A stretch of 54,603 bases of DNA from Candidatus Omnitrophota bacterium (GTDB lineage: Bacteria > Omnitrophota > Gorgyraeia > Zapsychrales > Zapsychraceae). The notes below the pieces were generated by a model that was given only the letters and a program-made list of their open reading frames with translations, did not search any database and had not been told where the DNA came from. Positions 1 to 44,112 of this stretch are shown here, in pieces. Both the position numbers and the translations under genes were made by a program. The stretch is taken from contig JAKLDK010000003.1 of NCBI GenBank assembly GCA_022703565.1, positions 1 through 54,603 on the forward strand. The letters are read 5' to 3'. The first letter of the stretch is position 1; each line of letters starts with the position of its first letter.

Positions 1-3000
1 TATGACAAAAAAGAAATGTTAGAGTCAATTTCTTTTCATGAATATCTGGAAGTATTACGGGGTGAAGATCATTTGCAAGCCAATCGCGATACTAAAGCAA
101 TTGATGAGTTTTGCGATTCCTTAACAAAAGTTCAACAATTTATCTTTGAACTTGCTATTGAGGCAGTTTTTGAAGATACTCCAGAAATAGTTGTTGTCCC
201 TGAAAGCAATTTAGATTCATTCTTCCTTAACCTCTCGGCAAGACGGTCTTATGAATATAGTAGATATTCAAACAAAACCGAGAAAAGATCCACTCACGAA
301 CTCTTTCCGGGAGTTGAAATCTTAAGCCTGCATCCTTCGTGGAATTCTGATGATTTAACGGGAGAGGCTTATTGGTCAGAAGGTAATCAAGAAAATATGC
401 CAACGATTTATCCTTCTTCGGGTCAAAAGACAGTTGTAGATATGGAGGTAGCAAGAGAAAATGTTTTTGTTGTTTTCGAGATTGAGGAAATGGAACACCG
501 CAATGTTATATTTTTAAGGATTAAAAAAGAAGGCAAGCAGTATCTCGTAATTACCGACGAAGGTCGCTATGAGATAACCAGAAGTTCTACCGGATTGTTA
601 AATTGGATAGAACAGAATGGTTATGAAATTATAGAAGGGCACAATTATATCCTAGGTGGAAAGCACAATACTTTTGGGTGGCAGGGTATTGGAGAAGAGG
701 AAGCAATCATTATAGATGAAAGAGGACAGCTCAAGACGGCAAGAAAACCAAAAGAAGATGAAGCTGATAGTACTGATAACATAGAAGATGATGTTGATAA
801 TGATGATAATTCTCTAGACGCCGATAAAGACAAAGGAAATGATAATGTTGATCAAGATAATTTGAGAATTAAGAATTTGGGGATTACATTGTCGTTCCTT
901 CCTAACAGGTCAAATGTTTTTATCGGCCCAAGAGGATATGGATTTCATAATAACGGAAGATTTACTGTCCATTTCTGGGGTGAAGATAAAACAAAGGTTC
1001 AAGTGCCGGAAGAATATGCGAAAGACAAGAAGGAAGCTTTTGTAGGAATTACGGTAAGAGTTATCGAGAATCTTATTTACGAATATGGCCTGCAAGCTTC
1101 AGGGCGGATGATAACCGAAGAAGATTTTAACAGAATTTTAAAAGCTGTTTCTTCCAGCGCTTTATACGGGTATTTAGCTAAACGGTTTATTTATTATGAT
1201 CAGGAAGATTTAATAAACGAAATATTTTATGAACATGATAGGCAAAGGCAGCAAATCGATTGGAATGCTTATTGTGAGTTGTGGAAGAAAGTTTTGGCGG
1301 TATTTATTTCACCTGAAGTTATAAAAAATATTGAGGGGACAAGTAAATCAGCCTGGAAACCTGTAAATGAGATAAGAGGTTTATATTATGGATTTAGTTT
1401 GGCGGTGCGGATGCTTAGAAATTATGACCATTATTTTGCGGATTTCTTTACGTATTGGTTTAAGAGAATTAATAAATCAGGTGAGCTAAATAAAGTAGCG
1501 GCTAATTTTATTAAAGAAGCCAATTTTGCTTTTAATCCCGGGTATGGTTTTTACGACGGAATTGGCGACCATGATACGCATGCTTGTATACATTGGTATT
1601 TCCCGCAGTTCAGCAGATTTCCATTTATTTATTTGCAAAATAAAATTAGCCTTTTAAGAGTTGTGGGCGGATATGGACATAACCGGCACGAATTATGCAG
1701 TTATATATGCAGGGAAGGTTGGGAGCATTTAGTGGTATCAGAATTCTTTGTTGGCAAGAATGATAGAGGATATGGGCGTGAAATGGTTTTTGCTAGCGTT
1801 CAAAAATTGGTCGAGAAATATGGAATGGCGATTTTTACCAAGGTTGCTTTGCAGGCGGAAGAAGATACAGAGGAAGTATTTAAGTTTATTGGAGATAACA
1901 GCTACTTGTTTGAGGATGAAAATGATTTTTCTACTGAAATTGATAATTCAAAGATAAATTATATTACGGCTATTTTAAAAGCAGTTCGGGCTGATGACAA
2001 CAAAAGCCTTGACGGCATAATCAAATTATTAAAAAGTGAATATCTAGATTTGCTAATTGCAATGCTGGGAAAACGCGGTACTGAAACATTTTTCGCTTAT
2101 CTAGTGGAAAAACCAGAAAACAAGAAATTGTTGACTGAAATTGTTGATTTCTTGTTCGGTGAAGTAATAACAAGAGATTCGGCTTTAGCTTTAGGTGTGA
2201 TAAGAAATAAGACAAAAGATCAAGATTTGCGCAAAAGAATCGAGGATGATGCCGTAGCCCTGCTAAAGACAAAAGGATTAAAGACAGAAGCTTATATTTT
2301 ATCGGCAGATATAATCCGATTTATAGGTTTTGAACATAGTATAAGTCTTTGGCGAGACAACGCTAAAGCAGAGTCGGCAAATGAAGAAGAAACAAAGAGG
2401 TCTCTTTCTACTCTTTATCAATTGATTAACCTTAATGGTCTTGATTCCAACGCTTATTTAGCTCTTGCCCGGGCAATCGGACGATTTGGCGCTGTAGATT
2501 GGGAAGAGGGTTATGTTAATGCCAATACATTAGCTTGTGTTGAACGAGTTATTAAAATGCGGGGCTTGAATCCAATTGCATATATTGCCGCAATCGAGGC
2601 TGCTAAGGCAATTATTTCTACTAATCCACAGCTTGTCGGGACAAAAGAGATAAGGCTTATTATTGAGTATTTAAAGAGAGAAGAACTAAATTCCGGAATA
2701 TTGGCGGCAATAGTAGCTTTAATTGCAGAAATTAGAAAGCATAATTCAGTTCATTTTAATCAGATGTTAATCGATTTATTGGCTCAAGCGCTTATTCAAA
2801 AGAAGATTGTGGCCTGCGGGCAAGATGATGAAATCTTAAAAAGAAATTTTTTAGGTGATTATATTAATGGAGTATATAGCTCGTTTGTTAATGAAGTGAT
2901 AGAGAGCGATGAAACAGTTATTAAGGGAAATTTAGTTGTTATTTTAAATGTTATTGCTATGGCTAGAAATGATCTTTATGAAGCGATCTATAACAAATTA

Positions 3001-6000
3001 GAATTATTTTTAAGAAGTATGATGCCGGCTAATATTGTTTTATTGATGAGAGAAGAACAAGAATCCGGGATGATGATTAAGCTGATGGCAGATTTTTCCT
3101 CCAATAAAAAACTCGATGAGTATAAAGCAATACTAAATAATAGCGAAGAAATACAAAGCATAATTAATTTAATAGAAAATCTTAAGAAAGCTTTCATTTC
3201 TTCTCTGTCAATTAATATGTATGGGAGAATAACCGGCGGATGGGACGGCATCGAGAATATCCTGGGAATGGTAACAACTTATCCGTATGTTGTGTCATTC
3301 CTGATAAATAAAATCGTAATTACGATGCGTTTTATCAGCCAAGGCTTAGGGGAAGATACAGGATTTAGGGCGATGGCTAATGTCGAAGAGAGATTGCCGG
3401 GATTACGGGCCAAATTATTAGAAGTCTTAGACATTTATAGTTTGCCGCTCTTGCATAAAAGAAGATTAATAAAAGCACTTCCTTTGGGGACAAGAGACCA
3501 ATTAAATGACTTGAGAGAACAGGCAGTACAGCTTGTAACAGCTATTGTTGGAGGTGATTCCCGGGCGGGATTAGTGGGTGAAATCAGAGATAGAATCCAT
3601 AATAGGCCGTCTCCGCAAGATCTTATAATTTTAAAGCATTACAGGGAATTTGTTGAATCAGACGGAAAAGAACGTACTGGCTTGGAACGTTTGGGATATT
3701 CGATAGCCGAATCTGATGTGATTACTGATCAGTTTATAAAGCAGCGAATTCTGAGGTCTTGTGACCAGTTAATAGTAACTCTCGAGGAAGTTTATGGTGA
3801 AGGCAGTATTAATTCTATAACGCAAATATTTGAGGCTTGGAGCGGAAGCGTTAATCCTCCGGAATTATTATCCGAGAAGATACGGGATACTATTGAGAAT
3901 TGTAAGTTTGGGTTAGAAGAGCTGGAAAGTTTTATCGGCGCAAGATTAGCTTTAAATGAATATTTGATGAGCGAAACAGGAGAAAAAAGATATCAAAGCA
4001 TAAAGTTAGATAACAGGCTTGAGCTACTTTTCTATCGGACATTTAATGAGATTTTCTCGGACGAAGTAAGCATCTCAGCATATTCTTACTCGGACAAGAT
4101 TCGATTCTTAAGATTGCTATTAATGAATACTGCTGCTAACGGATATCAGACGCAAATGTTAAAAAGCATAGAAGGAGAATTGCAAACTTTAGAAAACGAA
4201 GCCAATCCTTTAAGGCTGTATTCAATATTAACCAGAATCGAACGAGTAATAAAAGAAGCTTCATCTGAATCAATTGACGATTACCAGGCATTTGCGGAAG
4301 GAATTGCAAAAGATACAAGAATAGAAGGCGATAATTATTTCTGGGTTGAAACATTCTCATCTAACATCTTCAGGTCGGATACGATTTATCTTTTATCCTT
4401 ATTCTTAAAGGAAATCAAAGAATGGGTTATGGAAGAAGCGAATGTGTCCGGTTGGCAAATTGTTGCCCCCGGTAAAATGGAAGGAAAGTTGCGGTATATA
4501 AAGAATGTAAATCAATTGAGCCGGGTAAAAGAAGATGAAATTATTGTAATTGAATCAATGCCGGATGTGCCTGTCGTTACAAATGTCGCCGGAATTATAA
4601 CTTTAAAAGAAGACACCCTTCTTAGCCATCCAGCAATAAGGGCCAGAAAAAATAGCATTCCATTCTTTGTTTGTTCTAATCTGGAAGTTTTAGAAAAGTA
4701 TTTTGGAAAATGTGTTTCAATTAGTTTAACCGAAGGGCAAATGCCAAAGATTCGAGTTGCGAAAGAACAAGTTGTCCAGCTAGAAAAGAAAAATGGAAAT
4801 GGTAATTCTGTCAAACTTCCGGAAGTTAACCTTGATTCCGTCCGGATATTGTTACCGGATGAATATGAAAAAGATACGGTAGGAAATAAAGCTTTCTTAC
4901 TTGAAGCATTAAACAAGTTGTTGCCGGAAAACATTTCTACCACAAAAAGTATTACGCTAAGTTTCGCTTTCTTTGAATATATATTGAGTCTTCCGCAGAA
5001 TGCGCAAGTTAAGAAAGAAATAAACGGTTTATTGCGGCAGGCAAGAATAAAAGGAGAGAAAAATCAAAGGAAGAAATTATTTAAGCTTAGAAAATTATTC
5101 TTAATGCTGGTTATTCCGGATGAAACTATTAAGGATATCAGCGATTCAATTATTGCCAATGTCGGAACAGGGCTTGTTTTCGTAAGATCGACAAGTAACG
5201 CGGAAGACTTAAAAGATTATGCCGGTGCCGGATTGTATGATTCGTTCCCGGCAATCGATCCGCAAGATTTAATTTCTTTAAGTTTCCATATTAAGCGTGT
5301 CTGGGCGTCGATTTGGACAGATAGGGCATTTTATGACAGAGAAGAAAATCATGTTGACCATAAAAAGGTGCGAATGGCTGTTTTGATTCAAGAAATGATT
5401 CCGTCGAGTTTTAGCTTTGTAGTTCATACTGAGAATCCGGCAAATGGAAGCGCTGATGAAATGATTATTGAAATAGTCCAGGGATTAGGCGAAGCTTTGG
5501 TAAGTGGAGCTGGTATTTACCAAGGCCTGGCACACCGGTATAGCTATAACAAGAAGACAAAAGAAATAAAGCGTCTAAGTTATGCTAATAAAAATAAGAG
5601 GCTAATTCTTGCCGGAGGTGATGTTATTAGAAAAGGAATAAATTATGCGGAAGATATTTTTACAATAAATGCTGAATTATCTGTGGGGATTGTAAGGGTT
5701 ATAGCCGAAGTCGCCCAAACAATTGAACAAAAATCTAATCAGGCCAGAGACATTGAAGGTTGCATTGTTCTTAAGGATATAAATAATCCGAGTGTATATT
5801 TTGTTCAGGATCGAGCGCAGCAAAAAGAGAATGGTAATGGCAACGGACAAATAGCCAATAATGCTAATGAAATAAGAAATGATGAATCTGATTCATCGGC
5901 TGAATCATATCCGGCGACACTCCCGGTAGATAATAAAAAAGAACGCAACGCATTGCCGCAAGAGAAATCCTTGATAGAGCAATCATTTGGCTTAAGCCAA

Positions 6001-9000
6001 GATGCTTTGGCGGAATTCAAGGTTATTACTGTTATTAATCCTAATCAAAGGATTGCGGTTCGAGTTGTTCGTAGGGATGTCAAGGCCTATTTATATGTTA
6101 ACCCGAATTTGCTACGCGCACCGCCGGAAGTATTAAGGGTTATTTTTGAAGGCCATGAATTATTCCACATCTTATATCCTAACGAATCCGAAGAACAAAT
6201 CCAAAAACGTACAATTAAGTTTCTAATTGATAATAATTTATTAGAAGGACATATCAAATATTTAAAACAAAATGATATTGGGCTGGTAGCACAACCGAAG
6301 TGGTTGGCTCTGCTTGAAGGCGAATACCGTGGCGGTAACCCTTTAACAATGGGAGAGGAAGATATTTCCGCCAGCCCAAGAAATTATGAGGAAAACTTGC
6401 AGGAAAGAATTTTGTCTAATTATTATTTGTCTTGGTCTTCACTTCTAATGTTTTTGACCGGTTTTATTGTTTTATTCTTTGGGCATGCAAATGAGGAACT
6501 TTTTCAAAAGAAAATATATTATGCGCCTGAAATTATAGTTAGTCATGCGACTAGTTTTGCCAGCAGTTTTGCCATCGCGTGGTTATTTAATTTATGTTTT
6601 ACGATAATGCTTCAGAAAGTGCATAAGTTCAAGACCAGTAAGCTTGTTGTGGCAAGTATTATTTCTGGATTAATAGGAGTTATATATACAACCTTACCTG
6701 AAACTATTATTCATTGGGGAGTACAGGACAAACAGGATATTTATGCTGGGATTTGTGGTGTAATTTTGTGGCTAATATTGAATGCTTTAAACGTGGTATT
6801 TGGAGTAAAGACGATAAAAAATAAAAATACGGAATTTGATTTTGGGCTGGAAGCTGAGTGTGAATCAGCTGGGATTGAAGGCGAGTACCGTGGCGGTAAC
6901 CCTTCAACAATGGGAGAGGAAGATATTTCCGCCAGCCCAATTATAAATTCAGACGATAATTTATTAGCTGAAAAACCAAAGGCTACGGAGGTAAAGAGTC
7001 CGACGGAAGGATTTAAAGCGCCATTGGATAATAAGTCTCCGGAAGAAATTGTTGCCGAACAGCGTCCTGTAGAAGATGAAGATATTGCTCAAGTTGATTT
7101 TGAATATTACACGAAAGTCGGGCTTCTGGCGATTAGTTTGTACAATAAAGAAATTGCCCTATCTGATGTTTCCGCTGATTTAAGAAAAGATGTCAAAACC
7201 CTTTGGGATTTGATGGAGGCTAACCGCAACAAGCATCCGGAATATGAAATGGAATATGGCCGGAACCGCGAACAGTCAGCGTTAATTTTGGGATATTATT
7301 TGATGAGTATGATTAAAGCCTTAGAAGTAGCCAAAAAGAATAAAAAAGTGCGAGTAGCTTTATCGGCGAGCTTGGGCTCGGGAAAAACTATTTCTGCCGG
7401 AGCTTTAGCCCGTTATATGTATGAGAAGTACAAAAGTGAGAATATATTAATGATAATGCCGAATGATAAAGTCGCCGATGCTTTTGGCAAGGACAGGTTT
7501 ATTTTTGGCGATGCTCCTCTAATTGAAATCGATGGTAGAAATGCGGATAAGCAAATGAGTCTGCCAGGGATTAAAATTGTTTCCTTTAGGGCGTTTCTGG
7601 AATTGGCGCGCTATCATCCGGAAATTGTGAAGAGCTCGTTCGGCATTATCGGCGAAATTGATTCTTTCTTGCGCGAGAACCCGCTTATTACCGGCCCGGC
7701 CCGCGACGGTGAGAAGGTTTTAGAGATTGCCGGAGAAGTCGCAAATAAGATTAGAAAAGGCGCGAGGCTTAAGACGTTGCCGGTTATTGAGCAGATGGCT
7801 TATGAGGTTGGACGGCGCAATGAAAGAATGCTCGTCCAAAGGGAAGCAATATTTGATTTGATTGACGGAATCATCGGCGATAACCGCGAAAACATTGTTT
7901 ATGATAGAAATCGTGGAGCGCAATTTAGGAAAGTAAGGCTGGATAGTGAGGCTTTATCTCCATACGAGAAATTCGAAATCGGAATAAGAGAATTAATCGC
8001 GGCCAAAATATTAATGCTGGAAAACGAAAAAGAGAATGAACGTATTGCCAATATCGTCTTGGATATTATTTGGAAAAGGTGGTCGCCGGAATTTGTTATC
8101 CAAAATGGTAAAAAGATTGCGCTATTATGCCGCAAGCAAAGCTATGTTCAGCCGGATACGATCCCCGGAGATTATATAACCGCTCAAATGCTCGTAATTG
8201 AAGCGGCCCGACGCATGAATAAACCGGTTGACCGGGCAGAATTTTTAAATGCCAGCCAGTTTAAGAGCGAAAATCCGACTCATGCGACCGATGCCTTAAG
8301 ATTGTTGAAAGGTATTGTATCCGACGGCGGTTCGGCCAAGTCGGAAAAGTTACAGTTAGCTCAATTGAATTTCCAGGTTAAAGAAATAGTCCCGGAAGAT
8401 GATTTAACAAAATTAGGCAAATTAGTCTTAGTTGAAGGTAAAAATACCGTTGAGATTTTGCAGGATGAATTGGCTTCAGATGATTTTAGGGCCGGTGGAT
8501 TGACTTTGGTTTCAGTAAGGCGGGCGCAATATGAAGAAATAATTAAAGGAATCACACCGGACGGATATTTTGTAGATGCTAATGGCAAAAGAAGAAGAAT
8601 AATCTTTGTCGGCGAGAAGGAACCGGGCAAGGTTAATAAAGAGCAATTGAAAATAGCGGAAGAACATATCTGTGATATCCAAAAAGATGGTTCAGCGGAA
8701 GAATTGGTTATAGTTTATTTAGGTTTATCGGCTGGGTCGAATATTGTTGAGAGGTTAAAAGATGCCAAAACACTTCCTTTAATAAATATTTTAAGAATTG
8801 GATCGATGGAACGGGCTGAGGTTAGCCAATTATTCGGCCGCGGCGACATTGCACTAATAAATAACGGCCGATTGAAGGTAAATTGCGCTAAGTCGGTTAT
8901 TGATATTGCAACCGATTCAAAGATTGCTTCGGCAGAAATAGAACGCGGCCGTGAGGCCTTGAATTTACCTGATGAAGATTCCATTTATGCTCAAAGAATT

Positions 9001-12000
9001 GTTTTTGAGGCGATTATGGACGGAATTCAAGCCTCGGCACAAATCGGAAAAGTCCTGCAAGTTTCCCGGCATTTAGGAAAAGAAGCAGAAGAACGATTGG
9101 AACAGGATATCCGTGATTATTTAAGAGAATTGGATGATGTTAGGGCCGTAAATGCTTTCGAGCTTGAGTTAGAAAAAGATGAAATAGATATTCCTCTTTA
9201 TTCCGGCGACGGAGTTAAAACTTATAAAAGAGAGTATCCCGACGGAAGGCTACAACCGGTATTTTTAAGCCAACGTGTCGACCAAGCTTTAGATTATAAA
9301 ACCAATGAAAGAACAACTACCGCGATTACAGCAAGGCTTATATACAAGCCTGAGCCGGAAGATCCAAATCAATTGACTTTTGTTAACGGTTATATTTTGT
9401 CGAATGTACAAATAGAAGACTTAAATTTAACCCAAGGCGATAATATTCAAGAACAAGGAATATTAATGCCGGTTTATGATAGTAAACAAGTTGGCCAGAT
9501 AAAGGCGGTATATTTTGAGGGTGAAATACACGCCGTGTTGGATGAAAAAATGTTTGTTAAGAAATTTGTTGATGAGTCTTTTGATACGAGCTTGTTTATC
9601 AGGCATCAGTGGTATTCAATAGAAGTTGACCGGTATAAGCCGGAAAATTTAGAACCCCGGCCGGCTGGTTATTTATTAGAAGGCCCGATGGAAGTATTTG
9701 TCCAGTTGGGAATTAAATTTAATGAAGATGATTTGGCTAGAAATGAATATGGCAAGTTGGTTGTCCGTAAACTTGTTTCGCTTGCCGAATATAAGTCTTT
9801 AGTTGAGTTTCCGTCGCAACGAGCCGAAGAGGGCATATTTAACGACGGTATTCTGGCTAACTTCCAGAATTACTTAAATGCTTCTATTATCGAAAAAGAT
9901 CAATGTGAACCAATAACTGATGAAGATATTCAGGAATTTACCCAGGCGATAGAGGGTATTAAAAGAAATTTAAGAAAAGTAATTCTAGGCAATAAAGCGA
10001 AGTTGATGGCCAGTTTAATCCGATTATTTAGCCACGAATATTTTGTCTTTACTACATTGGCTAAGTACAGAAAACTATTGGATGTGTTGGCTCCGATAGC
10101 TAAACTAAAAAGTCCGACGGATAGAGATAAAATGGATAAAGTATTAATCCGGGCTGTCAGATTGGCAATAGACGAAGGAATGAAGAAAGAGGATGTTGCT
10201 AAATTTTATTCTGATATGCAAAGGATTATCGATTTAGAGCCGGTTTTGTTAAGTGATGCGATTGAATTGGCATTAAAAGAATACGAACTATTTATTGAAT
10301 TAAATAACCGCCCGCAAATGCTAAAAGAATTGTCGCCTATTATTGAGGAAGGAGTTTTGAAAGATAGCAGTAAGCTGGAATTATTAATTAAAAACGCGAT
10401 TGATATTGTTACAAAAGAAGAAACTATTCTTAGGCGAGAGAACCAAGCGGCCTTACAAGAAGCTTATGAGCATGTTCTTAGGATTGAAAAGGTATTATTA
10501 GCCAAGCGGCCGAAAAAAGAAGAAGAATTGGCAAAATGGGTTGATGACTTGGAATCCATTCGTCAAACAAGAATGATTATTTCTGATATGAAGAATAAAG
10601 ACAATAGCCGGGTTAATTATTATTTCAATTCGTTAAGCAGCCGGGATATAAACCGCAAATTAGCAGAATTTATGAGTTATGTTATTGGAGAAAAGAATTT
10701 GGCACGTGCCAAAGGATTGTCAAAAGCGCAAAAATTGCATATCCAAAAAGCAATTGATTATTTTGACCGTCATAAGATTGCCCGAAACAAAGCGCTTTTA
10801 ATCAGAGTAATGCACGAATTGCGCGGAAGGTTTACGGCAGCCCACGGCGGAAGGTTCAAGAACCTGAAGAATTTCTTTGGCGGCCGCGATGTAAATATCT
10901 TTGATTTCTTAAGGCAAATTCTACAAGAAGAATTGGCTAAACGATTGCAAAATCGCCAAAGGATGTTCTTAAAATATACGATAATCCATGAGTCGCAAGG
11001 CTTAATTAAAATTGCCGCGCATGAAACACACGTCGAAGATTTAAAGAACTGGGAAAGCAACTTCAAGAGAGTTGAGAATAATGATGAAGGATTAGAAGCC
11101 GCAGTATTGACCGCGAGAGAAGCCTTGGCACATATTGCAATAGAGCCCAAAGATGAGTTTGGAATAAGCGATGATGATTTTATTAATCTTAATAGCGGGC
11201 TTGTGTATGGCGCAGAAGGTAATTACAAAGCAATATTTAGAGACGGGGTTTGGTCAAAGGTCGAGAATAACAGATTCCATTATGAATTGCCGCAGAAACA
11301 TGACGATATTGAAGTTATTGCTGACGGGAAAATTGATTCTGAAGGGCTGGTAACTGAAAGATTAACCGTCACAGGCTCAAGGGCGATATTGCAAAACGAA
11401 GAATCGTCAAAAGGAATTTTAAGAACGGATAATCATGCGGCAGTTTTAAAGGATATCGAGGTGATTAACTCTGCAAAGGATATTATCCGTGTAAGAAATG
11501 TTTACCGGGGAGATTTGAACAATATTTTAAGGCATTTAAAAGGTAGTGCAGCGGCGGATGAGCCGGAAATGATTGAAAATCTCGCGGATGAGACTGCCCG
11601 TAATTCTTTAGATGAATCAATGTTTGCATCTAACGGCCGTATTAAACCGGATTTAAAGGAAATTATTATCAATCAAGCCGAACGCAATATTGTTTCAATC
11701 CCTGACAGGAATATATTTGGAGAAATTACTCATTCTGTCCGTGAGGTTGTTTTGGTACCGATATTATCAGCTTGGGGTGGAGTTTATTCGACGATAAACA
11801 TTAATATTGTTCCATTTAATATTTTAAGAAACGATAAATCTGGATTGTTTAATGAAGAAGCCGGTAAAACAAAACACATAATTTCAGCCGAATTGGATAA
11901 ATTGTTATCCGGCATCAGTGATTATTTAAAGTATCTTTTTGATTTGTTAGCTAAGTTTATGAAATTGCTTTCTAACGCGATAGAGATGATGATTGAGGTT

Positions 12001-13092
12001 GCAAAGATGTTTAAGCTCGATCCGCCAATAATGGTATTCGTTATTCAAGAAGTTATCGCTCAAGCAAATCGTAATAAAATAATTTATATCCGAGAAGAAT
12101 TGATGCCGGTTCTGGCCAAGGATTTGAATATGTTTGGACAAGAGGTAACTGAGGTTAACACAAAGCCAATTGGTTCGGTCGTTGCCATATCGACTTCAAC
12201 AAATGGAGCACCGACGGATGGAACTTGGCGGAACTATTATGAAGGTAAATTAAGAAATCCGGATAACGCTTTATATGGGCAAATATTCGAGCAGTTAGTA
12301 AATAACTTTGTTAATGCCAAAGCTGATTCTGATTGGGCGGTATTTGCTGCAAGCGAGAGAAAGAATCCTGATTCTGTTTGGAATGGAGTGTTTACTGAAG
12401 TTGATAGGAGATTAACAAAATCTAATGTTGGCAATAGCGGCGCAATTCCACCCAAGGACGATGCCCATATTAATGCCGGCGCAATACCTCCGTCAGCCAA
12501 ATTAACGATAACAAATGATTTAGTTTTTGTTCAAGTTTATCCGATATATCCCATAGCAATATTAAATAACTTTAATCCAAATGATGATGAAAGAAATAGG
12601 CGTTCGTCGGTTGTCGCGATAAAAACTGAAGTAAACGGCGCGCCTTTAGATGGAACGTGGAAAACCTATTATGAAGGGTATTTAAATAATCCGGATAAGG
12701 CTTTATATGGACAGATATTTGAAAGTTTGGTGAATAACTTTATTAACGCCGCACCGCAATCTGACTGGGCAGTATTTGCGGGAGAAGAAAGACAAAAGGC
12801 AAGTTCCGTTTGGCAAGTTGTATTTAGTGAGGTTGATAAGAGATTGATGGCCGACTCAATTAAAGGATATTTTAAATATCTAGATGAAGCTGCTCTCGCT
12901 AATCCATCTGCGGAAGTATTGCCTTTGTCTGATAGTTTTCAATTGATTGAATTAACCGCAATGGGAAAGTTTACCGTCGATGTATCTAATATCGGGATTT
13001 TTAACCTGCCGGCCATTGCTAATTCGGCACCTGTTCCAGCCTTAGTATTTTCACCTCTTAAATATCATCCGCTTGAGGAAGTAGCAAAATAG
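1..13092 (+). CDS. Giant multidomain protein, at least 4,358 aa; 5' end probably truncated by the window
   Basis: Uninterrupted frame-1 ORF ending at TAG 13090-13092. The frame is also open from nt 1 to the first ATG at nt 16, and no Shine-Dalgarno is visible before nt 16, so the true start may lie upstream of the window. It contains several recognisable modules, listed as separate features. Confidence 0.9.
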   Translation, partial: YDKKEMLESISFHEYLEVLRGEDHLQANRDTKAIDEFCDSLTKVQQFIFELAIEAVFEDTPEIVVVPESNLDSFFLNLSARRSYEYSRYSNKTEKRSTHELFPGVEILSLHPSWNSDDLTGEAYWSEGNQENMPTIYPSSGQKTVVDMEVARENVFVVFEIEEMEHRNVIFLRIKKEGKQYLVITDEGRYEITRSSTGLLNWIEQNGYEIIEGHNYILGGKHNTFGWQGIGEEEAIIIDERGQLKTARKPKEDEADSTDNIEDDVDNDDNSLDADKDKGNDNVDQDNLRIKNLGITLSFLPNRSNVFIGPRGYGFHNNGRFTVHFWGEDKTKVQVPEEYAKDKKEAFVGITVRVIENLIYEYGLQASGRMITEEDFNRILKAVSSSALYGYLAKRFIYYDQEDLINEIFYEHDRQRQQIDWNAYCELWKKVLAVFISPEVIKNIEGTSKSAWKPVNEIRGLYYGFSLAVRMLRNYDHYFADFFTYWFKRINKSGELNKVAANFIKEANFAFNPGYGFYDGIGDHDTHACIHWYFPQFSRFPFIYLQNKISLLRVVGGYGHNRHELCSYICREGWEHLVVSEFFVGKNDRGYGREMVFASVQKLVEKYGMAIFTKVALQAEEDTEEVFKFIGDNSYLFEDENDFSTEIDNSKINYITAILKAVRADDNKSLDGIIKLLKSEYLDLLIAMLGKRGTETFFAYLVEKPENKKLLTEIVDFLFGEVITRDSALALGVIRNKTKDQDLRKRIEDDAVALLKTKGLKTEAYILSADIIRFIGFEHSISLWRDNAKAESANEEETKRSLSTLYQLINLNGLDSNAYLALARAIGRFGAVDWEEGYVNANTLACVERVIKMRGLNPIAYIAAIEAAKAIISTNPQLVGTKEIRLIIEYLKREELNSGILAAIVALIAEIRKHNSVHFNQMLIDLLAQALIQKKIVACGQDDEILKRNFLGDYINGVYSSFVNEVIESDETVIKGNLVVILNVIAMARNDLYEAIYNKLELFLRSMMPANIVLLMREEQESGMMIKLMADFSSNKKLDEYKAILNNSEEIQSIINLIENLKKAFISSLSINMYGRITGGWDGIENILGMVTTYPYVVSFLINKIVITMRFISQGLGEDTGFRAMANVEERLPGLRAKLLEVLDIYSLPLLHKRRLIKALPLGTRDQLNDLREQAVQLVTAIVGGDSRAGLVGEIRDRIHNRPSPQDLIILKHYREFVESDGKERTGLERLGYSIAESDVITDQFIKQRILRSCDQLIVTLEEVYGEGSINSITQIFEAWSGSVNPPELLSEKIRDTIENCKFGLEELESFIGARLALNEYLMSETGEKRYQSIKLDNRLELLFYRTFNEIFSDEVSISAYSYSDKIRFLRLLLMNTAANGYQTQMLKSIEGELQTLENEANPLRLYSILTRIERVIKEASSESIDDYQAFAEGIAKDTRIEGDNYFWVETFSSNIFRSDTIYLLSLFLKEIKEWVMEEANVSGWQIVAPGKMEGKLRYIKNVNQLSRVKEDEIIVIESMPDVPVVTNVAGIITLKEDTLLSHPAIRARKNSIPFFVCSNLEVLEKYFGKCVSISLTEGQMPKIRVAKEQVVQLEKKNGNGNSVKLPEVNLDSVRILLPDEYEKDTVGNKAFLLEALNKLLPENISTTKSITLSFAFFEYILSLPQNAQVKKEINGLLRQARIKGEKNQRKKLFKLRKLFLMLVIPDETIKDISDSIIANVGTGLVFVRSTSNAEDLKDYAGAGLYDSFPAIDPQDLISLSFHIKRVWASIWTDRAFYDREENHVDHKKVRMAVLIQEMIPSSFSFVVHTENPANGSADEMIIEIVQGLGEALVSGAGIYQGLAHRYSYNKKTKEIKRLSYANKNKRLILAGGDVIRKGINYAEDIFTINAELSVGIVRVIAEVAQTIEQKSNQARDIEGCIVLKDINNPSVYFVQDRAQQKENGNGNGQIANNANEIRNDESDSSAESYPATLPVDNKKERNALPQEKSLIEQSFGLSQDALAEFKVITVINPNQRIAVRVVRRDVKAYLYVNPNLLRAPPEVLRVIFEGHELFHILYPNESEEQIQKRTIKFLIDNNLLEGHIKYLKQNDIGLVAQPKWLALLEGEYRGGNPLTMGEEDISASPRNYEENLQERILSNYYLSWSSLLMFLTGFIVLFFGHANEELFQKKIYYAPEIIVSHATSFASSFAIAWLFNLCFTIMLQKVHKFKTSKLVVASIISGLIGVIYTTLPETIIHWGVQDKQDIYAGICGVILWLILNALNVVFGVKTIKNKNTEFDFGLEAECESAGIEGEYRGGNPSTMGEEDISASPIINSDDNLLAEKPKATEVKSPTEGFKAPLDNKSPEEIVAEQRPVEDEDIAQVDFEYYTKVGLLAISLYNKEIALSDVSADLRKDVKTLWDLMEANRNKHPEYEMEYGRNREQSALILGYYLMSMIKALEVAKKNKKVRVALSASLGSGKTISAGALARYMYEKYKSENILMIMPNDKVADAFGKDRFIFGDAPLIEIDGRNADKQMSLPGIKIVSFRAFLELARYHPEIVKSSFGIIGEIDSFLRENPLITGPARDGEKVLEIAGEVANKIRKGARLKTLPVIEQMAYEVGRRNERMLVQREAIFDLIDGIIGDNRENIVYDRNRGAQFRKVRLDSEALSPYEKFEIGIRELIAAKILMLENEKENERIANIVLDIIWKRWSPEFVIQNGKKIALLCRKQSYVQPDTIPGDYITAQMLVIEAARRMNKPVDRAEFLNASQFKSENPTHATDALRLLKGIVSDGGSAKSEKLQLAQLNFQVKEIVPEDDLTKLGKLVLVEGKNTVEILQDELASDDFRAGGLTLVSVRRAQYEEIIKGITPDGYFVDANGKRRRIIFVGEKEPGKVNKEQLKIAEEHICDIQKDGSAEELVIVYLGLSAGSNIVERLKDAKTLPLINILRIGSMERAEVSQLFGRGDIALINNGRLKVNCAKSVIDIATDSKIASAEIERGREALNLPDEDSIYAQRIVFEAIMDGIQASAQIGKVLQVSRHLGKEAEERLEQDIRDYLRELDDVRAVNAFELELEKDEIDIPLYSGDGVKTYKREYPDGRLQPVFLSQRVDQALDYKTNERTTTAITARLIYKPEPEDPNQLTFVNGYILSNVQIEDLNLTQGDNIQEQGILMPVYDSKQVGQIKAVYFEGEIHAVLDEKMFVKKFVDESFDTSLFIRHQWYSIEVDRYKPENLEPRPAGYLLEGPMEVFVQLGIKFNEDDLARNEYGKLVVRKLVSLAEYKSLVEFPSQRAEEGIFNDGILANFQNYLNASIIEKDQCEPITDEDIQEFTQAIEGIKRNLRKVILGNKAKLMASLIRLFSHEYFVFTTLAKYRKLLDVLAPIAKLKSPTDRDKMDKVLIRAVRLAIDEGMKKEDVAKFYSDMQRIIDLEPVLLSDAIELALKEYELFIELNNRPQMLKELSPIIEEGVLKDSSKLELLIKNAIDIVTKEETILRRENQAALQEAYEHVLRIEKVLLAKRPKKEEELAKWVDDLESIRQTRMIISDMKNKDNSRVNYYFNSLSSRDINRKLAEFMSYVIGEKNLARAKGLSKAQKLHIQKAIDYFDRHKIARNKALLIRVMHELRGRFTAAHGGRFKNLKNFFGGRDVNIFDFLRQILQEELAKRLQNRQRMFLKYTIIHESQGLIKIAAHETHVEDLKNWESNFKRVENNDEGLEAAVLTAREALAHIAIEPKDEFGISDDDFINLNSGLVYGAEGNYKAIFRDGVWSKVENNRFHYELPQKHDDIEVIADGKIDSEGLVTERLTVTGSRAILQNEESSKGILRTDNHAAVLKDIEVINSAKDIIRVRNVYRGDLNNILRHLKGSAAADEPEMIENLADETARNSLDESMFASNGRIKPDLKEIIINQAERNIVSIPDRNIFGEITHSVREVVLVPILSAWGGVYSTININIVPFNILRNDKSGLFNEEAGKTKHIISAELDKLLSGISDYLKYLFDLLAKFMKLLSNAIEMMIEVAKMFKLDPPIMVFVIQEVIAQANRNKIIYIREELMPVLAKDLNMFGQEVTEVNTKPIGSVVAISTSTNGAPTDGTWRNYYEGKLRNPDNALYGQIFEQLVNNFVNAKADSDWAVFAASERKNPDSVWNGVFTEVDRRLTKSNVGNSGAIPPKDDAHINAGAIPPSAKLTITNDLVFVQVYPIYPIAILNNFNPNDDERNRRSSVVAIKTEVNGAPLDGTWKTYYEGYLNNPDKALYGQIFESLVNNFINAAPQSDWAVFAGEERQKASSVWQVVFSEVDKRLMADSIKGYFKYLDEAALANPSAEVLPLSDSFQLIELTAMGKFTVDVSNIGIFNLPAIANSAPVPALVFSPLKYHPLEEVAK
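4300..5820 (+). other. Alpha-glucan/phosphoglucan water dikinase-like (PEP-utilising family) phosphotransferase module inside the giant ORF
   Basis: A swivel phospho-His segment WQIVAPGKMEGKL...ESMPDVPVVTNVAGIITLKEDTLLSHPAIRARKNSIPFFVC (candidate catalytic His codon 4627-4629) is followed by a PPDK_N-type nucleotide-binding domain. That domain reads GNKAFLLEAL ... VRSTSNAEDLKDYAGAGLYDSFPAI ... VWASIWTDRAFYDR ... MAVLIQEMIPSSFSFVVHTENP ... VQGLGEALVSG ... DIEGCIV...YFVQDRAQ. His domain before nucleotide domain is the order I recall for plant GWD/PWD, not for PpsA or PPDK. Confidence 0.65.
6154..6168 (+). other. HExxH zincin-like motif (SprT/WLM/DUF45-style context) inside the giant ORF
   Basis: The translation reads YLYVNPNLLRAPPEVLRVIFEGHELFHILYPNESEEQ. 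HELFH is preceded by a hydrophobic strand-helix pattern typical of minimal zincins. This is motif-level evidence only. Confidence 0.3.
6314..6379 (+). repeat. 66-nt direct repeat, copy 1 (encodes EGEYRGGNPLTMGEEDISASP)
   Basis: 64 of 66 nt are identical to 6875-6940. The offset is 561 nt (187 codons), so the two copies are in frame. Confidence 0.95.
6408..6830 (+). other. Block of four predicted transmembrane helices in the middle of the giant ORF
   Basis: Four hydrophobic stretches of 18-25 aa are present: LSWSSLLMFLTGFIVLFFG, TSFASSFAIAWLFNLCFTIML, LVVASIISGLIGVIYTTL and IYAGICGVILWLILNALNVVFGV. I saw no comparable hydrophobic block elsewhere in the ORF (by-eye reading). Confidence 0.6.
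6875..6940 (+). repeat. 66-nt direct repeat, copy 2 (encodes EGEYRGGNPSTMGEEDISASP)
   Basis: Near-identical to 6314-6379. Together the two copies bracket the four-TM block. Confidence 0.95.
7267..8880 (+). other. Degenerate SecA-like DEAD-motor ATPase module (NBD1, PPXD-like insert, NBD2) inside the giant ORF
   Basis: Several segments align by eye to SecA:
- Walker A LGSGKT (7375-7389) followed by ILMIMPNDKVA, compare SecA VVTVNDYLA.
- IIGEIDSFLRENPLITGPA, compare SecA DEVDSILIDEARTPLIISG.
- EFVIQNGKKIALL...ITAQMLVIEAARR, compare dYiV.dg...GLHQAvEAKE.
- GIVSDGGSAKSEKLQLAQLNFQVKEIVP, compare GMTGTAkTEeeEF..IY.l.VvvIP.
- SMERAEVSQLFGRGDIAL, compare tERhEsrRIDnQLrGRsGRQGD. Confidence 0.5.
12172..12860 (+). 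repeat. Duplicated C-terminal domain of about 85 aa (two copies, roughly 60 percent aa identity)
   Basis: Copy 1 (about 12172-12425) reads GSVVAISTSTNGAPTDGTWRNYYEGKLRNPDNALYGQIFEQLVNNFVNAKADSDWAVFAASERKNPDSVWNGVFTEVDRRL. Copy 2 (about 12601-12856) reads SSVVAIKTEVNGAPLDGTWKTYYEGYLNNPDKALYGQIFESLVNNFINAAPQSDWAVFAGEERQKASSVWQVVFSEVDKRL. Confidence 0.9.
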
Positions 13093-23906: not shown

Positions 23907-24428
23907 ATGAAAAAAACAGGCTTTACTTTAATGGAGATTTTGCTGGTTGTGATTGTTGTTTCTATTCTCGCCGGATTTATTCTTCCCAATTATACTAAAA
24001 CTATAAAGATTAACCGCGAAAGAGCGGCGGCAGACAGTTTATCGCTGGTTGTTGAGAGGATTATGGCGTATAAGTCACAGTATAATATGTATCCTAATGC
24101 TGCTGCAATATTTTCAGGGCGCAATGATTCAACATCTTTTCGTAGTTACGAAATTGAAGAAGCTCTTAATTTTTATCCTTTTTATGTTGAAGACTTAATG
24201 GTCTTTTGTTGTTCAGCTAATCCCAATAATATTCATCCAAACGGCTGTAGCCCTAGCCTGCCGGTTCCTACTCCGGCAGCGCCAAAATATACTTGCGTTG
24301 CTGATGATTATAAATATGGATATCAACTTTACGTCACCTTTGATGATGAAAACAATATTATGCGTAAACCATTTTGTAACGGAACCTGCCCTTCCTGCGA
24401 AGCTTCCGGCTGTCCTTGGGAGCCATAA
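23907..24428 (+). CDS. Type IV pilin / pseudopilin-like protein (prepilin-type N-terminus)
   Basis: It carries a class III signal MKKTG|FTLMEILLVVIVVSILAGFILPNY with Glu at +5. The C-terminal half is Cys-rich, with 9 Cys. Confidence 0.8.
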   Translation: MKKTGFTLMEILLVVIVVSILAGFILPNYTKTIKINRERAAADSLSLVVERIMAYKSQYNMYPNAAAIFSGRNDSTSFRSYEIEEALNFYPFYVEDLMVFCCSANPNNIHPNGCSPSLPVPTPAAPKYTCVADDYKYGYQLYVTFDDENNIMRKPFCNGTCPSCEASGCPWEP

Positions 24429-24436
24429 AGTTATTT

Positions 24437-25887: not shown

Positions 25888-26415
25888 ATGAGAAAAGATA
25901 AACAAGCAATGCCTAAAGAAATAAAAATTGGCCGCGGGGGTTTCACTTTCCTAGAGATTGTTATAGTAATGATTATTCTTGGAGTTTTAACCTCACTAGC
26001 TATTCCGCGTTATCAAGTAATGATTGAGAAATCGCGCACAGTCGAAGGGATAAAAGTTTTATCCGATATTCATCGTGCCCAGGAAAGGTATAGTTACCTG
26101 GCAAATGGGGTTTATTCGACTAATGTTGATGATTTAAATTTGTCATTCTCGCCTTTGGCTTATTTTGAAAATCCAGCAGTCAATAGCGCGGGCGGTACTG
26201 TCTTAAATCCACCCAATTTCCTGGGTTCTATAACCCGTAAAGGTGATTTGTATACTCTTTATATTACTGCAAAGAGTATTTTTTCATGCAAAAAAGGCGA
26301 GGGCGTTGAGGTCGAATATTGCACTATTTTGGGTTTTAGGAAATTTAAAGATTTTGTCGAAGATGAGGGCGAAATTCCGTACATTCCGCAAAATGAAGGG
26401 GGAGAAAACCCTTAG
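25888..26415 (+). CDS. Type IV pilin / pseudopilin-like protein (prepilin-type N-terminus)
   Basis: It reads GRGG|FTFLEIVIVMIILGVLTSLAIPRYQ with Glu at +5. The start could be Met1 or Met8. Confidence 0.8.
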   Translation: MRKDKQAMPKEIKIGRGGFTFLEIVIVMIILGVLTSLAIPRYQVMIEKSRTVEGIKVLSDIHRAQERYSYLANGVYSTNVDDLNLSFSPLAYFENPAVNSAGGTVLNPPNFLGSITRKGDLYTLYITAKSIFSCKKGEGVEVEYCTILGFRKFKDFVEDEGEIPYIPQNEGGENP

Positions 26416-44109: not shown

Positions 44110-44112
44110 AAT

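What the first reader, a model, noticed from the sequence alone, without database searches (positions are those of the whole stretch)
4300..5820. Glucan/phosphoglucan water dikinase-like phospho-His module embedded in the giant protein
The segment has a swivel-domain histidine context (TLLSHPAIRARKNSIPFFVC, preceded by WQIVAPG...ESMPDVP) followed by the nucleotide-binding domain. The nucleotide-binding motifs are VRSTSNAEDL..AGAGLYDSFPAI, VWASIWTDRAF, MAVLIQEMIP.SFSFVVHTENP and GLGEALVSG.

Both the domain order and the specific residues look closer to plant GWD/PWD, as I recall them, than to bacterial PpsA, PPDK or rifampicin phosphotransferase. A dikinase that phosphorylates a polymer via a phospho-His would be unexpected inside a giant membrane-associated bacterial protein. 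KNGNGN-type linkers (nt about 4790 and 5826) bracket the nucleotide-binding domain, which suggests it is a discrete inserted module.
Basis: partly seen in the sequence, partly recalled or inferred. Interest (0 to 1): 0.65.

Follow-up and report, generated by a model that had tools for sequence, protein, structure and literature searches.

The report
GWD-like dikinase cassette in giant protein
A 4358-residue membrane-anchored bacterial protein carries an intact ATP-driven phospho-histidine enzyme cassette. The cassette belongs to a previously undescribed sister branch of the plant starch-phosphorylating enzyme GWD, and what it phosphorylates is still unknown, with a glycogen-like glucan the leading guess.

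Summary
Every quoted motif lies in ORF 16-13092 (+). Pfam finds PPDK_N (aa 1621-1946, E 1e-35) and the GWD-type phospho-His domain PF22973 (aa 1479-1576, 37.9 bits), while the generic PEP-utilizers model fails its cut-off.

The conserved unit is larger than reported: aa ~1051-1946 (nt 3166-5853). It has a helical domain, a swivelling pHis domain with His1538, a disordered KNGNGN linker, and an ATP-grasp domain.

About 20 database clusters carry the whole unit at 29-44% identity, in 1.1-3.5 kaa proteins. Many have HEAT repeats, one has two tandem units, and one is fused to a GT5 glycogen/starch synthase.

The nucleotide-binding domain groups with bacterial GWD-like enzymes (97% NJ bootstrap; 207 bits versus ~127 for PpsA/RPH). 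The helical domain matches the GWD pre-His region (hhalign E 2e-15). However, the VRSxSNAEDL..AGAGLYDS segment sits in the PpsA/RPH position, whereas GWD-like proteins have it about 105 residues downstream. No PEP-binding barrel, rifampin-binding domain or carbohydrate-binding module was found.

PPDK_N domains in Omnitrophota giant proteins were already reported, but read as pyruvate dikinase. My verdict is an active GWD-superfamily dikinase of a new subfamily, with the acceptor unproven and an alpha-glucan most likely.

The parts
16..13092 (+). Giant ORF, 4358 aa from the first ATG. The frame is open to the left edge of the window, so the protein may be longer.
   Evidence: The DNA is present at >=99% identity in contigs of three anaerobic-digester metagenome runs.
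16..3165 (+). N-terminal region, aa 1-1050, with no recognisable family. Its last ~150-250 residues align with the HEAT-repeat-containing upstream parts of two relatives.
   Evidence: No Pfam hits. P0253 aligns back to aa 915 and P0261 back to aa 815. HEAT repeats precede the unit in L006p, L007p, P0248 and P0251.
3166..4440 (+). All-helical domain of the cassette, aa 1051-1475. Its C-terminal ~285 residues (from about aa 1190, motif EIRDRIHNRPSPQDL) are homologous to the helical region before the pHis domain of GWD-like proteins. This is the putative acceptor-binding domain.
   Evidence: blastp to P0004, P0011 and P0015 from aa 1189. Alignment A1. hhalign 98.5%, E 2.3e-15 over 273 columns. 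AlphaFold2: 20 helices, pLDDT 82. No PDB neighbour. Invariant residues include H1195, R1410 and R1453.
4450..4758 (+). Phospho-histidine (swivel) domain, aa 1479-1581. The catalytic His1538 lies in LLSHPAIRAR (nt 4627-4629).
   Evidence: PF22973 GWD1_pHisD, E 1.5e-9 and 37.9 bits; PF00391 scores only 15.1 bits. Small beta domain in the model. H1538 is invariant in every alignment.
4759..4845 (+). Flexible linker between the pHis and nucleotide-binding domains, with KNGNGN (NGNGN at nt 4792-4806).
   Evidence: pLDDT < 50 at model residues 540-545, which are aa 1590-1595. The sequence is not conserved in P0001 or P0002. Lowest conservation block of the unit.
4846..5853 (+). ATP-grasp nucleotide-binding domain, aa 1611-1946 (Pfam match aa 1621-1946). 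Conserved residues: K1625, R1724, E1730/D1731, D1912/E1914, Q1931/R1933/Q1935.
   Evidence: PF01326, E 1.1e-35. Foldseek RPH 5hv6 at E 9e-14 and TM 0.84-0.87, plus HpeI 9goj and PpsA 2ols. Residues invariant in 21 relatives.
5179..5250 (+). Segment FVRSTSNAEDLKDYAGAGLYDSFP, aa 1722-1745. It lies before the WAS motif, as in PpsA/RPH. In GWD-like proteins the equivalent segment (IFRSDSNGEDLxGYAGAGLYDS) lies about 105 residues after WAS.
   Evidence: Alignment A1. Motif positions in about 80 proteins. Non-collinear match to the GWD-like HMM: window NBD 109-145 aligns to HMM 225-260. The segment is 70-77% identical to the relocated segment of P0005 and P0012.
5830..5844 (+). Second NGNGN run, at the C-terminal edge of the cassette.
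   Evidence: Homology to relatives ends at aa 1935-1956. The model is disordered from residue 889.
6421..6816 (+). Block of four hydrophobic helices, aa 2136-2267, taken as the membrane anchor. An even number puts both flanks on the same side of the membrane.
   Evidence: Kyte-Doolittle scan only. No dedicated topology predictor was available.
6307..6940 (+). A 73-nt direct repeat (6307-6379 and 6868-6940, 93% identical, 561 nt apart and in frame) that brackets the transmembrane block. It encodes EGEYRGGNP[L/S]TMGEEDISASP.
7297..7479 (+). P-loop, SF2-helicase-like N-terminal ATPase motif region, aa 2428-2488. Walker A is SLGSGKT at aa 2454 and a Walker-B-like GEIDS follows.
   Evidence: PF04851 ResIII at 23.2 bits against a cut-off of 22.5 when the segment is scanned alone.. 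No PDB sequence match.

Best explanation
Residues ~1051-1946 of the giant protein (nt 3166-5853) form a self-contained and probably active dikinase cassette of the GWD branch of the PEP-utilising enzyme superfamily.

Proposed mechanism:
1. The C-terminal ATP-grasp domain binds ATP.
2. The beta-phosphate goes to His1538 of the small swivelling domain, and the gamma-phosphate goes to water, giving AMP + Pi.
3. The phospho-His domain swings on its disordered linkers, one of which is the KNGNGN stretch.
4. It delivers the phosphate to an acceptor held by the upstream helical domain. That domain is the only other part shared with GWD.

The cassette sits on the cytoplasmic face of a membrane-anchored multi-domain protein of the kind described for Omnitrophota.

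The most likely acceptor is a hydroxyl of an alpha-glucan (glycogen-like polymer).

What is shown computationally: domain identities, fold, residue conservation, linker disorder, and the relationship to GWD-like proteins.
What is inferred from family knowledge (GWD, RPH, PpsA): the chemistry.
What is inferred from homology and from one domain fusion: the acceptor.

The cassette represents a separate subfamily. It has the GWD domain order, helical core and pHis type, but it keeps the PpsA/RPH order of segments inside the ATP-grasp domain.
For: - Pfam PPDK_N at 1e-35 and GWD1_pHisD at 37.9 bits.
- AlphaFold2 model with pLDDT 84.3 and pTM 0.83, showing a helical domain, a beta pHis domain, a disordered linker and an ATP-grasp domain.
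- Foldseek matches to the RPH, HpeI and PpsA ATP-grasp domains.
- H1538, K1625, R1724, E1730/D1731, D1912/E1914 and Q1931/R1933/Q1935 are invariant in 21 relatives at 29-44% identity.
- NBD profile scores: 207 bits against GWD-like, 126 against PpsA, 129 against RPH.
- NJ bootstrap of 97% for the window clade plus GWD-like proteins.
- Helical domain against the GWD pre-His region: hhalign E 2.3e-15.
- The whole 900-aa unit recurs as a cassette in about 20 clusters of large proteins, twice in tandem in P0247.
- Link to alpha-glucan:
  - P0263 carries the same unpermuted unit fused to a GT5 starch/glycogen synthase plus a GT1 domain.
  - Bacterial GWD-like genes sit in glycogen gene clusters.
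  - Omnitrophota long proteins are rich in starch-synthase and phosphoglucomutase domains and are mostly membrane-anchored with cytoplasmic domains.
- Four predicted TM helices place both ATP-using halves on one side of the membrane.
Against: - No carbohydrate-binding module of any kind was detected in the giant protein.
- No glycogen genes lie in the 54-kb window or next to the relative in L008.
- The helical domain has no solved structural neighbour, so its role as acceptor site is a guess.
- HEAT repeats in relatives would fit a protein partner equally well.
- Only one of about 33 relatives scanned has the GT5 fusion. Others carry HATPase_c, methyltransferase or PRK domains.
- No expression data were found.
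- Topology rests on a hydropathy scan, and the N-terminus is unresolved.
- No verified plant GWD or PWD sequence was in the tree.
Confidence: 0.55

Rival explanations
1. The chemistry is the same (ATP to His1538-phosphate to acceptor), but the acceptor is not a glucan. It could be a small molecule, as for rifampin phosphotransferase, HpeHI or PigC/RedH. It could also be a protein recruited by the HEAT-like region, or another part of the giant protein itself.
For: - The closest solved structures are the ATP-grasp domains of small-molecule kinases: RPH 5hv6 and HpeI 9goj.
- No CBM was found.
- HEAT repeats, typical protein-binding scaffolds, precede the unit in many relatives.
- Fusion partners are diverse: HATPase_c, methyltransferase and PRK.
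- Other bacterial lineages with the pHis-then-NBD order exist and have unrelated N-terminal domains, for example P0041 and P0048.
Against: - The helical domain is homologous to that of GWD-like proteins.
- It shows no similarity to the RPH rifampin-binding domain (hhalign probability 0.9%).
- PF27448 is absent.
- The GT5 fusion in P0263.
Confidence: 0.3
2. It is a pyruvate, phosphate (or water) dikinase domain that interconverts pyruvate and PEP. This is how PPDK_N domains in Omnitrophota giant proteins were described.
For: PF01326 is named after PPDK. NCBIfam PpsA models match the N-terminal 320 residues of their roughly 800. The preprint's own statement.
Against: - There is no PEP/pyruvate-binding TIM-barrel domain (PF02896) anywhere in the protein.
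- NCBIfam scores of 85-133 bits fall far below the cut-offs of 598-976.
- The domain order is reversed.
- The NBD groups away from PpsA.
Confidence: 0.03
3. The cassette is a catalytically dead structural or regulatory remnant inside a scaffold protein.
For: Most of the giant protein has no recognisable enzymatic domain. The giant proteins of this group are reported to evolve fast.
Against: Every residue class needed for ATP binding, Mg2+ binding and phospho-transfer is invariant across 21 relatives that share only 29-44% identity overall. The fold is predicted with confidence.
Confidence: 0.05

Closest known systems
[quoted passage not shown]
   Same: - The pHis domain lies before the nucleotide-binding domain.
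- The pHis domain is of the GWD type (LSHxAIRAR).
- The helical region before the pHis domain is homologous.
- The NBD is the nearest by profile score and by tree.
- The derived (G)YAGAGLYDS form of the nucleotide-loop motif is shared.
   Different: - The RSxSNxEDL..AGAGLYDS segment is in the PpsA/RPH position and has not been relocated about 105 residues downstream.
- There is no CBM45, CBM20 or Ig_N_CWD1 domain.
- Only one Cys follows the catalytic His, where plant GWD1 has the redox pair. The CFATC motif is from my own knowledge; the disulfide near the His is stated in PMC12892837.
- It is embedded in a giant membrane protein, and overall identity is only 23-28%.
Rifampin phosphotransferase (RPH; PDB 5hv1, 5hv6, 5fbs) and the two-component kinase HpeHI (PDB 9goj)
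   Same: They are the best structural matches for the ATP-grasp domain (TM 0.84-0.87). The order of segments within that domain is the same. The His-swivel dikinase chemistry is the same.
   Different: In RPH the ATP-grasp domain is N-terminal and the swivel domain C-terminal. The RPH rifampin-binding domain (PF27448) is absent and is not homologous to the helical domain here.
PEP synthase (PpsA) and pyruvate, phosphate dikinase (PPDK)
   Same: ATP-grasp nucleotide-binding domain (PF01326), a catalytic His on a mobile domain, and collinear NBD segments.
   Different: There is no PEP/pyruvate-binding TIM barrel (PF02896), the domain order is reversed, and the NBD is more distant by profile score and by tree.
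Giant and long multi-domain proteins of Omnitrophota ('Archaeovorins'; bioRxiv 10.1101/2023.11.21.568195 and 10.64898/2026.06.07.730766)
   Same: - HEAT-type scaffolding in relatives.
- A PPDK_N domain.
- A TM block followed by a P-loop helicase-like region.
- Pseudopilin-like genes nearby.
- A relative annotated as Candidatus Omnitrophota.
- A membrane-anchored architecture with cytoplasmic domains.
   Different: At 4358 aa it is far below their 30,000-aa class. SecA-DEAD identity of the P-loop region could not be shown. The taxon of the window was not verified. Those papers did not recognise the GWD-type architecture.

Membership tests
GWD/PWD (glucan, water dikinases) | Phospho-His domain N-terminal to the nucleotide-binding domain | tested here: met
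   PF22973 at aa 1479-1576 precedes PF01326 at aa 1621-1946. The model shows the same order.
GWD/PWD (glucan, water dikinases) | GWD-type pHis domain with the catalytic His | tested here: met
   PF22973 scores 37.9 bits against a cut-off of 27. H1538 is invariant.
GWD/PWD (glucan, water dikinases) | Helical region before the pHis domain homologous to that of GWD | tested here: met
   hhalign 98.5%, E 2.3e-15 over 273 columns against bacterial GWD-like proteins. blastp alignments run from aa 1189.
GWD/PWD (glucan, water dikinases) | Order of segments in the nucleotide-binding domain as in GWD-like proteins (WAS, then GLGE, then RSDSNGEDL..YAGAGLYDS) | tested here: not met
   The window has RS (1724), then WAS (1763), then GLGE (1823), as in PpsA/RPH. 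Its match to the GWD-like HMM is non-collinear. That plant GWD shares the relocated order is from my own memory and was not tested.
GWD/PWD (glucan, water dikinases) | Glucan-binding module (CBM45, CBM20 or Ig_N_CWD1) | tested here: not met
   No such Pfam hit in the whole protein or in its segments, even at E <= 1.
GWD/PWD (glucan, water dikinases) | Phosphorylates glucosyl C6 or C3 of alpha-glucans with release of AMP + Pi | not testable with these tools
   This needs biochemistry. The indirect support is the GT5 fusion in P0263.
GWD/PWD (glucan, water dikinases) | Groups with GWD in a phylogeny that includes PpsA and RPH | tested here: met
   NJ tree on 318 NBD columns: the window clade plus GWD-like proteins form a group in 292 of 300 bootstraps, and the window clade lies outside the GWD-like clade, which itself is recovered in 299 of 300. 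The method is distance-based only, and no verified plant sequence was included.
PpsA/PPDK | C-terminal PEP/pyruvate-binding TIM barrel (PF02896) | tested here: not met
   Absent. NCBIfam PpsA models match only their N-terminal ~320 positions, at scores far below the cut-offs.
PpsA/PPDK | Nucleotide-binding domain N-terminal to the pHis domain | tested here: not met
   The order is reversed.
Rifampin phosphotransferase (RPH) | ATP-grasp, then rifampin-binding domain (PF27448), then C-terminal swivel domain | tested here: not met
   No PF27448 hit. The helical domain against the RPH middle domain gives an hhalign probability of 0.9%. Only the ATP-grasp fold is shared.
Omnitrophota giant or long membrane-anchored proteins | TM block followed by a divergent SecA-DEAD helicase, with HEAT and PPDK_N content, in an Omnitrophota genome | tested here: inconclusive
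   Four TM helices and a ResIII-like P-loop just after them. SecA identity was not shown. The taxon is inferred only from relative P0123, which NCBI annotates as Candidatus Omnitrophota.

The most novel reading that the evidence does not exclude
The cassette belongs to a bacterial lineage that preserves an intermediate step in the origin of glucan, water dikinases. In this lineage the domain order had already switched (helical, pHis, ATP-grasp) and the GYAGAGLYDS motif had already been acquired, but the nucleotide-loop segment had not yet moved to its GWD position.

There is also a very large bacterial GWD-like family sitting in glycogen gene clusters. Taken together, this would mean that GWD arose in bacteria rather than with the primary plastid. 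It would also mean that Omnitrophota build and phosphorylate a glycogen-like polymer on membrane-anchored mega-enzymes.
Probability: 0.3. Interest if true: 0.7.

Novelty: new variant of a known kind. Interest (0 to 1): 0.55.

Why it matters
GWD and PWD still have no solved structure. The literature treats them as enzymes of starch-accumulating eukaryotes, with a few bacterial copies explained by lateral transfer (PMC6260743).

A confidently foldable bacterial sister subfamily offers three things:
- A tractable model for the unknown second half-reaction, because it shares the helical core and the pHis domain while keeping the ancestral ATP-grasp connectivity.
- A polarity marker for how the family evolved.
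- A correction to the annotation of 'PPDK' domains in Omnitrophota giant proteins. These cannot make PEP because they lack the PEP-binding domain.

If the acceptor is a glucan, it would also be a first lead that bacterial glycogen is enzymatically phosphorylated. One paper raises that point only as speculation (PMC13011383).

Tried and rejected
- **Origin of the window.** An exact look-up of the window's MutL found nothing on record. The genome-contig scan with the unit returned only an unrelated Leptotrichia PpsA-like locus. The taxon therefore rests on annotated relatives only.
- **Getting plant GWD/PWD for the tree.** The profile search with alignment A1 returned only 7 proteins. The search with P0010 was filled by bacterial GWD-like proteins. 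The cluster look-up gave no taxon names for the possibly algal P0018, P0019, P0022 and P0026. No verified plant sequence was compared.
- **Bootstraps.** The first run timed out. The second had invalid distances for very divergent pairs and is discarded. Only one search is used.
- **Helical domain.**
  - Foldseek against PDB found nothing (best E 0.63).
  - A single-sequence phmmer gave only 14-16-bit hits, so the homology claim rests on the profile comparison.
  - The idea that the helical domain equals the RPH rifampin-binding domain, which would make the architecture a circular permutation of RPH, was tested and rejected (hhalign probability 0.9%).
- **SecA-like identity of the P-loop region.** There were no PDB sequence hits and only a borderline ResIII hit.
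- **Gene neighbourhood.** Neither the window nor L008 holds glycogen genes.
- **RNA evidence.** No RNA runs could be listed.
- **Other checks.** The antisense ORFs 4512-4943 and 10770-11150 have no family hits and are taken as chance ORFs. Mikkelsen 2004 (PMC1223868) is not held.
Full report
**1. The observation**

The window carries one very long ORF, 16..13092 on the + strand, of 4358 codons. The two NGNGN runs start at nt 4792 and 5830.

Pfam finds PPDK_N at aa 1621-1946 (E 1.1e-35). It also finds the GWD-specific phospho-histidine model PF22973 at aa 1479-1576 (E 1.5e-9, 37.9 bits against a cut-off of 27). The generic PEP-utilizers model reaches only 15.1 bits, below its cut-off of 23.1.

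NCBIfam PpsA, RPH and PigC models match only through their N-terminal ATP-binding third, far below their cut-offs. By sequence, the PDB holds PpsA (8a8e, 1e-24) and RPH (5fbs, 1.5e-20) as relatives, and no GWD. A 2026 review confirms that GWD and PWD have no solved structure.

One caveat applies: no in-frame stop lies between nt 1 and the ATG at nt 16, so the protein may continue upstream of the window.

**2. The true extent of the unit**

The closest database proteins, P0001 and P0002 (39-45% identity), and metagenome loci L006 and L007 (38-40% over the unit) align from giant aa ~1051 to ~1936.

An exhaustive search of 1.84 billion representatives found 9856 relatives at E <= 1e-3 and 194 at E <= 1e-30. 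About 20 clusters carry the whole 900-residue unit at 29-44% identity, inside proteins of 1.1-3.5 kaa.

- P0247 has two units in tandem.
- None of these proteins shares the giant's first ~800 residues or its C-terminal 2400 residues.
- In relatives the unit is commonly preceded by HEAT repeats.

The thing is therefore a reusable cassette of about 890 residues, not the 340-residue nucleotide-binding domain bracketed by the two NGNGN runs.

**3. Anatomy**

An AlphaFold2 model of aa 1051-1950 (26-sequence alignment) has mean pLDDT 84.3 and pTM 0.83. It shows four parts:
- an all-helical domain (model residues 1-425);
- a small beta domain that carries His1538 (430-531);
- a disordered stretch (540-545 with pLDDT < 50, which is KNGNGN at aa 1590-1595);
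- an alpha/beta domain (560-885).

Foldseek matches the last domain to the ATP-grasp domain of rifampin phosphotransferase (5hv6: E 9e-14, TM 0.84-0.87, rmsd ~3 A). HpeI (9goj) and PpsA (2ols) follow, and PPDK matches only weakly. The helical domain modelled alone (pLDDT 82) has no PDB neighbour; the best E is 0.63.

In 21 members of the close clade these residues are invariant: H1538, K1625, R1724, E1730/D1731, D1912/E1914 and Q1931/R1933/Q1935. In the helical domain H1195, R1410 and R1453 are also invariant. Assigning them to ATP and Mg2+ binding rests on alignment with the PpsA/RPH/PPDK family and on my knowledge of that family. It was not tested here.

**4. Relationship to GWD**

Three independent parts point to GWD rather than to PpsA, PPDK or RPH.
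- **pHis domain.** It fits the GWD model and fails the generic model.
- **Helical domain.** From about aa 1190 (EIRDRIHNRPSPQDLIILKHY against WHQKLHNNTTPDDIVICEAY) it is homologous to the region before the pHis domain of GWD-like proteins. The profile-profile comparison of these regions alone gives 98.5% probability and E 2.3e-15 over 273 columns. The same comparison with the middle domain of RPH gives nothing.
- **Nucleotide-binding domain.** It scores 207 bits against a profile of GWD-like domains, against 126 (PpsA), 129 (RPH) and 126 (other bacterial pHis-first proteins).

In an NJ tree the window clade, with L008p and L009p, is recovered in 78% of bootstraps. Its union with the GWD-like clade is recovered in 97%, the GWD-like clade alone in 99.7%, and PpsA plus RPH in 98%.

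'GWD-like' here means proteins that carry PF22973 and PF01326 (the full-length ones also PF23166) and that JGI annotates as alpha-glucan, water dikinase. I could not retrieve a verified plant sequence.

**5. The difference from GWD: a relocated segment**

In PpsA, RPH and the window clade the order of motifs is:
1. (V/F)RSxxxxED..AG.. 
2. WAS 
3. GLGE

In all GWD-like proteins examined the first motif is missing from that place. It reappears about 105 residues after WAS, as IFRSDSNGEDLxGYAGAGLYDS (alignment A1; motif positions).

The profile test shows this directly. The window domain matches the GWD-like profile in four pieces, and window residues 109-145 align to profile positions 225-260, out of order. 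The matches to PpsA and RPH are collinear.

The segment itself is 70-77% identical between the window and P0005 or P0012. The two groups therefore share the derived GYAGAGLYDS form but differ in where it sits.

The window clade is thus a sister subfamily with the ancestral connectivity. My recollection is that plant GWD1 also has the relocated order, but that is memory and not a test. I found no paper in the held library that links GWD to such a permutation.

**6. Context in the giant protein**

- Downstream of the cassette lie about 190 residues with an HELFH motif (aa 2047).
- Four hydrophobic helices follow (aa 2136-2267). They are bracketed by a 73-nt direct repeat that is 93% identical and in frame.
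- Next comes a P-loop region with a borderline ResIII hit (23.2 bits against 22.5; Walker A at aa 2454).
- About 1900 residues without family hits follow. They include an 80-residue duplication near the C-terminus.

An even number of helices puts both ATP-using halves on the same side, presumably the cytoplasm. This is a hydropathy argument only.

The layout matches what two preprints describe for Omnitrophota long and giant proteins:
- TM regions followed by divergent SecA-DEAD helicase domains, with HEAT repeats, GT5 glycogen-synthase domains and PPDK_N among the frequent domains. [quoted passage not shown]
- A predominant membrane-anchored, cytoplasmic-domain architecture with a sugar-metabolism module centred on starch synthase.

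NCBI annotates relative P0123 as Candidatus Omnitrophota. The window DNA occurs at >= 99% identity in three anaerobic-digester metagenomes. The rest of the window is ordinary bacterial chromosome: MutL, MutS, ComM, pseudopilins, a biotin pathway and tRNAs.

**7. How it most likely works**

By analogy with GWD, RPH and PpsA (family knowledge; RPH mechanism in PMC4844700, listed):
1. ATP binds in the ATP-grasp cleft.
2. The beta-phosphate is passed to His1538.
3. The gamma-phosphate is released as Pi.
4. The pHis domain swings on its linkers.
5. It hands the phosphate to an acceptor.

PEP synthesis is excluded, because no PEP/pyruvate-binding barrel exists anywhere in the protein.

Apart from the pHis and ATP-grasp domains, the only conserved part is the helical domain shared with GWD. 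I take it to be the acceptor site.

Evidence that the acceptor is an alpha-glucan:
- the homology with GWD;
- bacterial GWD-like genes sitting among GH57 branching enzyme, glycosyltransferase and amylase genes;
- P0263, in which the same unpermuted unit follows a complete GT5 plus GT1 glycogen/starch synthase and a HEAT repeat;
- one further relative, of undetermined class, with CBM48 plus alpha-amylase domains.

Evidence against:
- no CBM in the giant protein;
- no glycogen genes nearby;
- varied fusion partners.

My confidence is about 0.9 that this is an active GWD-superfamily dikinase cassette, and about 0.4-0.45 that its acceptor is an alpha-glucan.

**8. Novelty and verdict**

Already known:
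- the PEP-utilising dikinase chemistry;
- PPDK_N domains in Omnitrophota giant proteins.

New here:
- These domains are GWD-type cassettes (helical, pHis, ATP-grasp) that cannot make PEP.
- They form a distinct subfamily, sister to GWD-like enzymes.
- GWD-like enzymes differ from them, and from PpsA and RPH, by a relocated nucleotide-loop segment.

I rate it a new variant of a known kind, with interest 0.55.

The module boundaries, the claim of closeness to GWD 'in specific residues' of the nucleotide-binding domain, the meaning of the KNGNGN linkers, and the degree of surprise all need correction.

Noticed in passing
window 6307-6379 and 6868-6940: A 73-nt direct repeat, 93% identical and 561 nt apart (187 codons, in frame), brackets the four-helix membrane block exactly. 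Recombination between the copies would remove the anchor in frame. It looks like a recently inserted or duplicated cassette boundary.
   Followed up: partly
L003 8001-9785; L004 8001-13485; proteins P0128-P0246: There is a very large bacterial family of full GWD-like proteins, about 1020 aa with PF23166 + PF22973 + PF01326. At least 1644 hits score <= 1e-20 to P0010, from Nitrospirota, Thermodesulfobacteriota and Dissulfurispiraceae MAGs. They sit next to GH57 branching enzyme, glycosyltransferase and amylase genes. The literature treats GWD as a eukaryotic starch enzyme with a few bacterial lateral transfers (PMC6260743).
   Followed up: partly
Alignment A1, columns ~790-830 against ~950-990; window aa 1722-1745: In GWD-like proteins the RSxSNGEDL..YAGAGLYDS segment of the ATP-grasp domain lies about 105 residues downstream of its position in PpsA, RPH and the window clade. 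I found no description of this in the searchable literature.
   Followed up: yes
window nt 5872: Contigs of runs X1 and X3 match the window from nt 5872 onwards, but carry 255 nt of unrelated sequence upstream. The last 30 nt of that sequence read in frame as LLLSSSVLPV. The junction is about 20 nt after the end of the cassette. It may be a population variant or a paralogue with a different upstream module. Coverage is only 2-4x.
   Followed up: partly
window 1-16: There is no in-frame stop between nt 1 and the ATG at nt 16 (TAT GAC AAA AAA GAA ATG). The giant ORF may be cut by the edge of the window and be longer than 4358 aa.
   Followed up: partly
window 12175-12414 and 12607-12846: An 80-residue segment is duplicated near the C-terminus (aa 4054-4133 and 4198-4277; SVVAIxTxxNGAPxDGTWxxYYEGxLxNPDxALYGQIFExLVNNF...). 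It has only a weak DMFA2_C-like Pfam hit (E 6e-4).
   Followed up: no
window ~6154-6168 (aa 2047-2051): An HELFH (HExxH) motif lies between the cassette and the membrane block. No family hit was found. About 0.1 such motifs are expected by chance in a protein of this size (my rough estimate).
   Followed up: no
L002 1-1914 and 1911-5624; P0247; L001 756-2306 and 2311-4212: The cassette occurs in tandem. P0247 has two units in one protein, and L002 has two adjacent genes that each carry one. In L001 the unit is split between two ORFs 4 nt apart, at the boundary between the helical and pHis domains. That could be a frameshift or a genuine two-gene form.
   Followed up: partly
window 23907-24428, 25888-26415 and 48885-49337 (-): Three small proteins carry the prepilin N-terminal methylation motif. 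A MORN-repeat protein (24416-25858) lies between the first two. Secretion and pilus genes near giant genes are reported for Omnitrophota.
   Followed up: no
window 43153-48888: A biotin cluster. It comprises a BirA-like ligase/repressor, a class I/II aminotransferase (BioF-like), an alpha/beta hydrolase (BioH-like), a methyltransferase (BioC-like), and a fused AAA_26 + class-III aminotransferase protein (BioD-BioA-like).
   Followed up: no
P0124 (NCBI MDD5099227.1): A close relative of the cassette (37-39% identity) is deposited under Candidatus Colwellbacteria (CPR), on a 3.2-kb contig. This may reflect mis-binning or transfer.
   Followed up: no
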